64,000 bases of DNA from the NCBI RefSeq assembly GCF_024298765.1, contig NZ_CP101210.1; one strand, 5' to 3'. Made by a program: the position numbers and the translations under genes. Shown here piece after piece: positions 51,060 through 51,254 of this stretch. Positions within the stretch are counted from its first letter, which is position 1, and every line of letters starts with the position of its first letter. The stretch comes from Escherichia coli (lineage in GTDB: Bacteria; Pseudomonadota; Gammaproteobacteria; Enterobacterales; Enterobacteriaceae). A model generated the notes under the pieces. The model was not told the origin of the DNA, made no database searches, and saw nothing but the letters and a program-made list of their open reading frames with translations.

Positions 51060-51097
51060 GGCTTGCTCAGATTGCTGACAACGTGCGATTTGTTCAT

Positions 51098-51190
51098 GCC
51101 GGATGCGGCGTGAACGCCTTATCCGGCCTACAAAACATTTGCAAATTCAATACATTGCGCGTAGGCCTGATAAGCGTAGCGCATCAGGCA
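51098..51190. repeat. REP/BIME-type palindromic repeat pair
   Basis: Two inverted REP-like units (gccggatgcggcgtgaacgccttatccggcctac and gcgcgtaggcctgataagcgtagcgcatcaggc) between convergent gcd and cueO, with a further hairpin at 51213-51236. Confidence 0.7.
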
Positions 51191-51254
51191 GTTTTGCGTT
51201 TGTCATCAGTTTCATGCCCGGAGAGATCCGGGCATATTTCCGAATACGGTCTTT

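What the first reader, a model, noticed from the sequence alone, without database searches (positions are those of the whole stretch)
51085..51240. REP/BIME cluster between convergent gcd and cueO
Two inverted REP units plus an extra hairpin fill the gap between the two convergent genes. Such elements can stabilise upstream mRNA, bind gyrase or IHF, and serve as targets for REP-associated transposases, and their copy number varies between strains.
Basis: partly seen in the sequence, partly recalled or inferred. Interest (0 to 1): 0.15.

Follow-up and report, generated by a model that had tools for sequence, protein, structure and literature searches.

The report
BIME-1 repeat between gcd and cueO
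The gap between the converging E. coli genes gcd and cueO holds a well-known kind of short palindromic repeat (a BIME-1: two REP hairpins around a linker with an IHF-type site) sitting against a conserved hairpin; it is ordinary, but it varies between strains and is a natural landing site for the insertion sequence IS621.

Summary
The 195-bp gap (51060-51254) between gcd (+) and cueO (-) has four parts:
- 6 bp of unassigned sequence.
- One complete BIME-1 unit (51066-51213): left arm, Y-type REP, 29-nt L linker with an IHF-like core, inverted Z1-type REP, right arm.
- A 9-bp-stem hairpin (51214-51235).
- A 19-bp spacer.

Both REPs match their consensus exactly, where chance expects no match. 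The linker and arms match 70 other BIME-1 copies.

The hairpin is not part of the repeat. It is invariant in every allele seen and in E. albertii. It has no U-tract, so it is more likely a 3'-end-protecting stem-loop than a classical terminator.

Among 5,426 complete E. coli genomes the gap comes in six forms:
- No BIME-1: 2,375.
- K-12-type BIME-1: about 2,513.
- K-12-type BIME-1 with IS621 in the Z1 REP: 197.
- The window's form: about 106.
- The window's form with a 69-bp tandem duplication: 128.
- A 118-bp deletion scar: 95.

Function is inferred from the family, not shown here. The finding is already known in kind and of low interest.

One side observation deserves a separate look. Elsewhere, BIME-1 insertions duplicate a whole terminator hairpin.

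The parts
51057..51059 (+). gcd stop codon (TAA)
51066..51097 (+). BIME-1 left outer arm (CTCAGATTGCTGACAACGTGCGATTTGTTCAT)
   Evidence: It is conserved across 70 other BIME-1 copies, with consensus CTCAGATTGCTGACAAAGTGCGCTTTGTTCTT. A 33-nt stretch of the K-12 version recurs elsewhere in E. coli genomes. It survives alone in the 77-bp scar allele.
51098..51131 (+). Y-type REP, ending in CTAC
   Evidence: Exact consensus match with 0 expected by chance. It contains the commonest E. coli REP 21-mer, GATGCGGCGTGAACGCCTTAT, quoted in PMC8049555. As RNA it folds at -21.3 (+) and -20.9 (-) kcal/mol. It aligns to the first hairpin of the Rfam naRNA4 model.
51132..51160 (.). L linker, a 29-nt variant of the 35-nt consensus
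   Evidence: It aligns to AAAATCGTGCAAATTCAATATATTGCAGAAACCTT with a 1-nt insertion and a 7-nt deletion at the Z1 side. The Rfam ES036 model covers the same motif (31.7 bits, below the gathering score of 37.6).
51145..51157 (+). IHF-like core ATTCAATACATTG
   Evidence: It matches 8 of 9 specified positions of WATCAANNNNTTR and is the only such site in the gap. The K-12 allele has AATCAATGGATTG, which by my own count on the alignment matches 9 of 9.
51161..51189 (-). Z1-type REP; GTAG at 51161-51164 on the + strand
   Evidence: Exact consensus match with 0 expected by chance. It is identical to the consensus of the 70 copies. As RNA it folds at -12.9 and -13.2 kcal/mol.
51161..51171 (-). IS621 target ATCAGGCCTAC with its CT core
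   Evidence: This is the only match in the 64-kb window. The target sequence is given in PMC11208160. IS621 occupies exactly this position in L005 and in 197 genomes.
51190..51213 (+). BIME-1 right outer arm (AGTTTTGCGTTTGTCATCAGTTTC)
   Evidence: It is conserved across the 70 copies, with consensus AATTTTGCGTTTGTCATCAGTCTCA. It is an imperfect inverted copy of the left arm (I6).
51214..51235 (.). Conserved hairpin ATGCCCGGA-GAGA-TCCGGGCAT, not part of the BIME
   Evidence: I5. It is invariant in all five E. coli alleles aligned and in E. albertii. It is present in genomes that lack the BIME. The local fold is -19 to -23 kcal/mol. No T-run follows on either strand.
51093..51100 (+). TTCATGCC, left copy of an 8-bp direct repeat
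   Evidence: D2. The 77-bp allele equals a deletion between the two copies.
51211..51218 (+). TTCATGCC, right copy of the 8-bp direct repeat
   Evidence: D2.
51255..51257 (-). cueO stop codon

Best explanation
This is one copy of BIME-1, also called RIP or RIB. BIME-1 is a roughly 150-bp non-autonomous palindromic repeat of Escherichia and close relatives. It is built as outer arm, Y REP, L linker, inverted Z1 REP, outer arm. Here it sits flush against an older, conserved GC-rich hairpin that lies 19 nt past the cueO stop codon.

Shown here:
- Its identity and exact anatomy.
- The hairpin is independent of the repeat.
- The element is present or absent between strains, and present in E. albertii.
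- It is remodelled by deletion between 8-bp repeats and by a 69-bp tandem duplication.
- Its Z1 REP is used in nature as an IS621 insertion site.

Inferred from the family and from K-12 data:
- gcd transcripts read through the element and are stopped by Rho about 190 nt inside antisense cueO. The REP and hairpin stem-loops then block 3'-to-5' exonucleases and set the stable 3' ends.
- cueO transcripts meet the conserved hairpin first.
- On DNA, the L linker binds IHF.

The net effect is expected to be modest, context-dependent tuning of gcd and cueO mRNA levels.
For: Identity: both REPs match their consensus exactly. The L linker and both arms align to 70 independent copies from E. albertii, E. 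coli and Pseudocitrobacter. The architecture matches the published BIME-1 definition. Rfam naRNA4 and ES036 give partial hits to the same motifs.

Hairpin independence: it is present and identical in the 46-bp gap that has no BIME-1 (2,375 genomes). It is also identical in E. albertii, where the flanking bases have diverged.

Plasticity: the alleles and their counts come. IS621 (1,279 bp counted with one copy of the core) lies between duplicated AG (= CT) cores at GT-AG-GCCTGAT. This agrees with the target ATCAGGCCTAC.

RNA role: each stem-loop is stable, at -13 to -21 kcal/mol. No intrinsic-terminator-like site is found in the gap. In MG1655 a Rho termination region is called at 138442(-), on the gcd strand inside cueO. 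Published work shows that stem-loops, including REPs, define the 3' ends of Rho-terminated mRNAs, and that REPs between convergent genes go with higher expression of both genes.

IHF: an 8/9 core is present, and the literature reports that the BIME-1 L linker frequently carries an IHF site.
Against: Nothing functional was measured for this allele. The curated Term-seq list for MG1655 has no 3' end in this gap. The window's L linker is 6 nt shorter than the consensus and its IHF core has one mismatch, so binding could be weak. Forty-four per cent of genomes do without the element, so any benefit is dispensable. The direction of change is unresolved. The gap without the element has CCATA where the alleles with it have GGCTTG or GACTTG plus the element, so neither is a simple insertion or excision product of the other.
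Confidence: 0.88

Rival explanations
1. The REP pair plus the hairpin form a bidirectional intrinsic terminator that stops both gcd and cueO transcription in the gap.
For: They lie between convergent genes. The stem-loops are stable on both strands. A preprint reports 78 REPs inside predicted bidirectional terminators.
Against: No T-run follows any of the stems on either strand, and the terminator scan finds nothing in the gap. In K-12, gcd-strand transcription reaches a Rho termination region about 190 nt inside cueO.
Confidence: 0.15
2. The gap encodes a small RNA of the naRNA4 (CssrE) or ES036 (CssrF) type.
For: There are Rfam hits at 38.2 and 31.7 bits.
Against: Both hits are below the gathering scores of 59.5 and 37.6. 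The naRNA4 hit covers only the first hairpin of that model. The two models simply contain the REP and L-linker repeat motifs. No sigma-70-like promoter is found in 50800-51500. The sequence is absent from 44% of genomes.
Confidence: 0.04
3. The gap carries a short protein-coding gene, either ORF 51083..51265 (60 aa) or ORF 51103..51321 (72 aa), both on the + strand.
For: Both ORFs are listed mechanically.
Against: They run through the repeats and into antisense cueO. They are removed or reshaped by every allele. RefSeq annotates nothing there.
Confidence: 0.01

Closest known systems
BIME-1 (also called RIP or RIB) of E. coli
   Same: It has one Y REP and one Z1 REP in inverted orientation, a long conserved L linker with an IHF-type core, and conserved outer arms. 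[quoted passage not shown]
   Different: The L linker is 29 nt instead of 35 nt (7 nt lost next to Z1, 1 nt gained). The IHF core matches 8 of 9 positions. E. albertii shares the short form, at 27 nt. A related allele carries a second Y REP through a 69-bp tandem duplication.
BIME-2 and atypical BIMEs
   Same: They are built from REP units in alternating orientation in intergenic DNA.
   Different: They use Z2 REPs, short S linkers and tandem arrays, and are the strong gyrase binders. None of these features is seen here.
REPINs mobilised by RAYT (TnpA_REP, YafM)
   Same: It is a REP doublet in inverted orientation, treated in the literature as the mobile unit.
   Different: No RAYT activity or footprint was tested or seen at this locus. 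The only transposase footprint found here is that of IS621.
Natural IS621 target sites in REPs
   Same: The 11-nt target ATCAGGCCTAC is present exactly. IS621 is inserted there, with duplicated CT cores, in 197 genomes.
   Different: In the window itself the site is empty.
3'-terminal protective stem-loops of Rho-terminated mRNAs (Dar and Sorek 2018, PMC6061677)
   Same: The hairpin at 51214-51235 and the REPs are stable stems without U-tracts. They lie upstream of a Rho termination region mapped in K-12.
   Different: No 3' end has been mapped at these stems.

Membership tests
REP / palindromic unit | 30-40-nt imperfect palindrome matching the Y, Z1 or Z2 consensus | tested here: met
   Y matches 34 of 34 and Z1 29 of 29, with 0 expected by chance. 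They are independently supported by the consensus of 70 copies and by the published commonest 21-mer.
REP / palindromic unit | Conserved GTAG (CTAC) tetranucleotide at the foot of the stem and a mismatch in the stem | tested here: met
   CTAC lies at 51128-51131 and GTAG at 51161-51164. The folds show an internal mismatch in each stem. The feature is defined.
REP / palindromic unit | Extragenic location | tested here: met
   It lies between the gcd and cueO stop codons.
BIME-1 | One Y and one Z1 REP in inverted orientation | tested here: met
   definition
BIME-1 | Long, conserved L linker between the REPs | tested here: met
   The first 27 of its 29 nt align to the 35-nt consensus of 65 or more copies. 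The end next to Z1 is shortened. The Rfam ES036 alignment shows the same.
BIME-1 | Single copy rather than a tandem array | tested here: met
   The window holds one unit. A sister allele has a partial tandem duplication.
BIME-1 | IHF binds the L linker | not testable with these tools
   Only the motif could be scored: 8 of 9 in the window and, by my own count on the alignment, 9 of 9 in K-12. No ChIP table was available.
BIME-2 | Z2 REPs, S linker, tandem repetition | tested here: not met
   The REP is the 29-nt Z1 form, the linker is of L type, and there is a single unit.
Intrinsic (Rho-independent) terminator, for the hairpin at 51214-51235 | GC-rich stem-loop | tested here: met
   A 9-bp stem with a GAGA loop.
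Intrinsic (Rho-independent) terminator, for the hairpin at 51214-51235 | U-rich tract directly after the stem | tested here: not met
   The + strand continues ATTTCCGAAT and the - strand GAAACTGATG. The scan reports no site there.
IS621 target site | 11-nt target ATCAGGCCTAC or ATCGGGCCTAC with a CT core | tested here: met
   Exact match at 51161-51171 (-). The target is given in PMC11208160.
IS621 target site | Actually used by IS621 | tested here: met
   The orthologous site is occupied in strain 90-9281 and in 197 of 5,426 genomes. It is not occupied in the window.
Rfam naRNA4 (RF02564) and ES036 (RF02751) | Score at or above the family's gathering score | tested here: not met
   38.2 against 59.5 bits, and 31.7 against 37.6 bits.

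The most novel reading that the evidence does not exclude
BIME-1 may be terminator-seeking mobile DNA. In two E. albertii insertions compared with the same sites in E. coli without the element (ysgA-metE and pstS-glmS), the element sits between two copies of the whole local terminator hairpin. Twenty-two of 68 copies surveyed carry such flanking repeats of 12-36 bp. The gcd-cueO element abuts its hairpin in the same register. It could be an old insertion of this type whose left-hand copy has been lost. If this insertion mode has not been described, it gives a concrete handle on how REP/BIME elements spread in vivo, which is still unknown.
Probability: 0.3. Interest if true: 0.5.

Novelty: already known. 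Interest (0 to 1): 0.13.

Why it matters
On its own this matters little. It is a textbook BIME-1 in a place where such elements are expected. It does have three practical uses:
- The locus offers a natural allelic series: no element, two linker variants, a duplication, a deletion scar, and an IS621 insertion. This series could be used to measure what a BIME-1 does to two convergent genes, one of which (cueO) matters for copper tolerance.
- The exact IS621 target here, occupied in 3.6% of genomes, is a documented natural landing site for a recombinase now used as a genome-editing tool.
- The gap is a compact strain-typing marker.

Tried and rejected
- A first REP pattern with the wrong internal spacing found nothing. 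It was replaced by the exact consensus patterns.
- The MG1655 RefSeq record lists no repeat features, so annotation could not confirm the REP call.
- Papers that mapped RNA 3' ends gave little. Dar and Sorek and the 3'-UTR valve paper have no supplementary files held as text. The Adams et al. curated list has no 3' end in the gap.
- The IHF ChIP paper has no supplementary files held as text. The IS621 paper's supplements do not name cueO or gcd.
- The primary BIME, RIB and IS621 papers (Gilson 1991, Boccard and Prentki 1993, Choi 2003) are not in the library.
- Citrobacter was useless as an outgroup because cueO is not next to gcd there.
- The E. albertii locus L034, tried for a comparison with and without the element, lies in repetitive DNA and gave no clean orthologue.
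- A flanking target duplication at the window locus was tested and not found. Scores of 5-6 equal the null level.

Full report
**What is in the sequence**

gcd (+ strand) ends at 51059. cueO (- strand) ends at 51255. RefSeq records that match the region name both genes. The gap between them is 195 bp. Read left to right it contains:
- GGCTTG.
- A 32-nt arm (51066-51097).
- The REP GCCGGATGCGGCGTGAACGCCTTATCCGGCCTAC (51098-51131, +).
- A 29-nt A/T-rich linker (51132-51160).
- The reverse complement of the REP GCCTGATGCGCTACGCTTATCAGGCCTAC (51161-51189, i.e. on the - strand).
- A 24-nt arm (51190-51213).
- A perfect hairpin ATGCCCGGA/GAGA/TCCGGGCAT (51214-51235).
- 19 nt up to the cueO stop codon.

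The repeat finder reports the REP-REP inverted pair, each REP's own stem, the hairpin, and weaker inverted 9-mers in the two arms.

**Is it more than chance?**

Yes. The Y-type and Z1-type REP consensus strings each match once in the 64-kb window with 0 mismatches. Shuffles give 0.00 expected matches.
- The window's Y REP contains GATGCGGCGTGAACGCCTTAT, which PMC8049555 gives as the commonest 21-mer of an E. coli genome and uses as a REPIN seed.
- Both REPs agree with the consensus of 70 other copies.
- The gap folds at -82 kcal/mol (z -5.3) on the + strand and -75 kcal/mol (z -5.1) on the - strand.
- Taken singly, the Y REP folds at about -21 kcal/mol, Z1 at about -13, and the hairpin region at -19 to -23.

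**Which kind of BIME**

PMC3333891 defines BIME-1 as one y and one z1 REP in inverse orientation. They are separated by a long, well-conserved L linker that frequently carries an IHF site, and the element occurs as a single copy. BIME-2 has z2 REPs, short linkers and tandem copies.

To test the linker I scanned one genome per species for a Y tail, 20-45 nt, then a Z head. Sixty-five of the 135 linkers found are 35 nt long, and 87 are 33-36 nt long. The L-type linkers share the consensus AAAATCGTGCAAATTCAATATATTGCAGAAACCTT. The pattern fixes 27 REP bases, so only the rest of the REPs, the linker and the flanks count as independent evidence.

The window's linker is AAAACATTTGCAAATTCAATACATTGCGC. 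It is the same motif with one extra T and 7 nt missing next to Z1. The 32 nt to the left and about 25 nt to the right of the REP pair are also conserved among the 70 copies. So the repeated unit here is 51066-51213.

Rfam agrees in its own way. The ES036 (CssrF) model is essentially the L linker plus the start of Z1. It hits at 31.7 bits, below its gathering score of 37.6, and the alignment shows the 7-nt gap. The naRNA4 model's first hairpin aligns to the Y REP.

The only IHF-like core in the gap is ATTCAATACATTG at 51145-51157, matching 8 of 9 specified positions. By my own count on the alignment, the K-12 allele has a perfect core, AATCAATGGATTG.

**The hairpin is a separate, older feature**

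It is identical in all five E. coli alleles aligned, including those with no BIME at all. It is also identical in E. albertii, although 5 of the 16 bases after it differ there. E. albertii has lost most of gcd but kept cueO and the hairpin. This points to a role for cueO.

No run of T follows the stem on either strand, and the terminator scan finds nothing in the gap. In MG1655, Adams et al. list a Rho termination region at 138442 on the gcd strand. That is about 190 nt inside antisense cueO and corresponds to roughly 51446 in the window. Their curated Term-seq list has no 3' end in the gap.

The best-supported model follows Dar and Sorek. Transcription ends downstream by Rho, and stable stems without U-tracts then stop the exonucleases. 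This is an inference; nothing was measured for this locus.

**Variation between strains**

Flanking sequence is present in 5,425 of 5,426 complete genomes. Junction-specific queries give the following counts.

| Allele | Genomes | Call |
|---|---|---|
| 46-bp gap, hairpin only | 2,375 | 28 |
| K-12-type left arm (all) | 2,710 | 29 |
| ...of which IS621 in the Z1 REP | 197 | 27 |
| Window-type left arm (all) | 329 | 25 |
| ...of which 77-bp scar | 95 | 59 |
| ...of which 69-bp tandem duplication junction | 128 | 89 |
| ...remaining, like the window | about 106 | by subtraction |

- The 77-bp scar equals a 118-bp deletion between the TTCATGCC repeats at 51093 and 51211. It leaves the left arm fused to the hairpin. 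Nissle 1917 is an example.
- The tandem duplication copies the arm plus the Y REP.
- The figure of about 106 assumes that the duplication alleles all carry the window-type arm.
- About 12 genomes are unaccounted for.

The K-12 and window alleles share both insertion boundaries but differ strongly in the linker. The window's short linker resembles that of E. albertii. So the element is old, or has been exchanged between the species, and the K-12 linker may have been converted from another copy.

Which state is ancestral is unresolved. The gap without the element has CCATA where the alleles with it have GGCTTG or GACTTG plus the element.

**IS621**

In strain 90-9281 a 1,279-bp IS621 (counted with one copy of the core) sits inside the Z1 REP, between duplicated AG dinucleotides at GT-AG-GCCTGAT. 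On the other strand this is the natural target ATCAGGCCTAC with its CT core, as given in PMC11208160. The window carries that 11-mer once, at 51161-51171 (-), and it is unoccupied.

**Rivals**

- A bidirectional intrinsic terminator is unlikely, because there is no U-tract and there is Rho-dependent read-through in K-12.
- An sRNA gene is unlikely. The Rfam scores are below threshold, no promoter-like site is found, and the sequence is absent from 44% of genomes.
- The two mechanical ORFs are not credible.

**Verdict**

The element is a BIME-1, so the expected partner is IHF rather than gyrase. The hairpin is independent of the repeat. The transposase footprint is that of IS621. The feature is already known in kind and ordinary.

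**Side observation**

While building the family alignment I saw that about half of the BIME-1 copies are flanked directly on each side by a strong hairpin. Of 66 copies, 29 (right side) and 28 (left side) fold at -12 kcal/mol or better. Only 9 of 132 control windows do so.

In 21 of 68 copies the two flanks are direct repeats of each other (score 12 or more; 0 of 68 in mismatched pairs). Counting inverted repeats as well gives 22 of 68, with lengths of 12-36 bp and a median of 21 bp.

Two cases were checked against the same site in E. coli without the element:
- At ysgA-metE, E. coli has one terminator hairpin. E. albertii has that hairpin on both sides of a 155-bp BIME-1.
- At pstS-glmS, the same holds for the glmS terminator.

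By species the counts are E. albertii 7 of 25, two Pseudocitrobacter genomes 15 of 32, and an E. coli genome 0 of 9.

The window locus shows no such duplication. Its element does abut the hairpin in the same register. I found no description of this in the papers I could search. The older primary papers were not available.

Noticed in passing
L022:4008-4200 compared with L130:300-345; L012:2343-2541 compared with L131:330-385; also L108, L107, L062, L058, L105, L056 and others: Many BIME-1 copies in E. albertii and Pseudocitrobacter are flanked by two copies of a locus-specific terminator-like hairpin (12-36 bp, median 21). In 22 of 68 copies the flanks score above every mismatched control. Two cases were verified against E. 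coli sites without the element that hold a single hairpin. This looks like a target duplication spanning a whole intrinsic terminator. I did not find it described in the papers I could search.
   Followed up: partly
L129:2720-2900 (E. albertii GCA_025802815.1): gcd is a remnant in this E. albertii strain. Only an internal piece survives, and its 3' deletion endpoint lies inside the BIME-1 left arm (..GGCCAG|ACAACGTGCG..). cueO is then followed by hpt.
   Followed up: partly
window about 51446 (+), equivalent to MG1655 138442 (-): Adams et al. 2021 (eLife, supplementary file 2) list a Rho termination region on the gcd strand inside antisense cueO. So gcd transcription overlaps the 3' end of cueO in K-12.
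   Followed up: partly
window 51092-51168; Rfam RF02751 and RF02564: The Rfam 'sRNA' families ES036 (CssrF) and naRNA4 (CssrE) are in effect models of BIME-1 L-linker and REP repeat motifs. They will therefore give near-threshold hits at many BIME loci.
   Followed up: partly
L011:6973-7476: E. albertii has four tandem BIME-1-like units (Y, 35-nt L-type linker, Z1) at a 147-bp period. Published descriptions say BIME-1 occurs as single copies.
   Followed up: no
L002:501-764 (strain 1410D004) and 128 genomes: A 69-bp tandem duplication of the left arm plus the Y REP has the junction ..CCTACAAAAC|TGACAACG.., with at most 1 nt of microhomology. A few genomes show the junction twice.
   Followed up: partly
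L040 (Desulfosporosinus sp. OT, 262-bp contig) and L043 (Bacteroidales MAG, 3,097-bp contig): Enterobacterial Y/Z REP pairs, with an L-type linker in L040, appear on tiny contigs assigned to unrelated phyla. These are probably assembly or binning contamination.
   Followed up: no
whole window 1-64000: This is the only REP pair detected in the 64-kb window by my patterns. GGCCTAC or GTAGGCC tails at 22739, 45009, 47760 and 57102 have no REP core. That is fewer than the roughly 600 REPs per genome quoted in the literature would suggest.
   Followed up: partly
L126 and L127 (Citrobacter amalonaticus-like and C. freundii): In Citrobacter, cueO is followed by unrelated genes rather than by gcd. The convergent gcd-cueO arrangement is therefore not shared with Citrobacter.
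   Followed up: no
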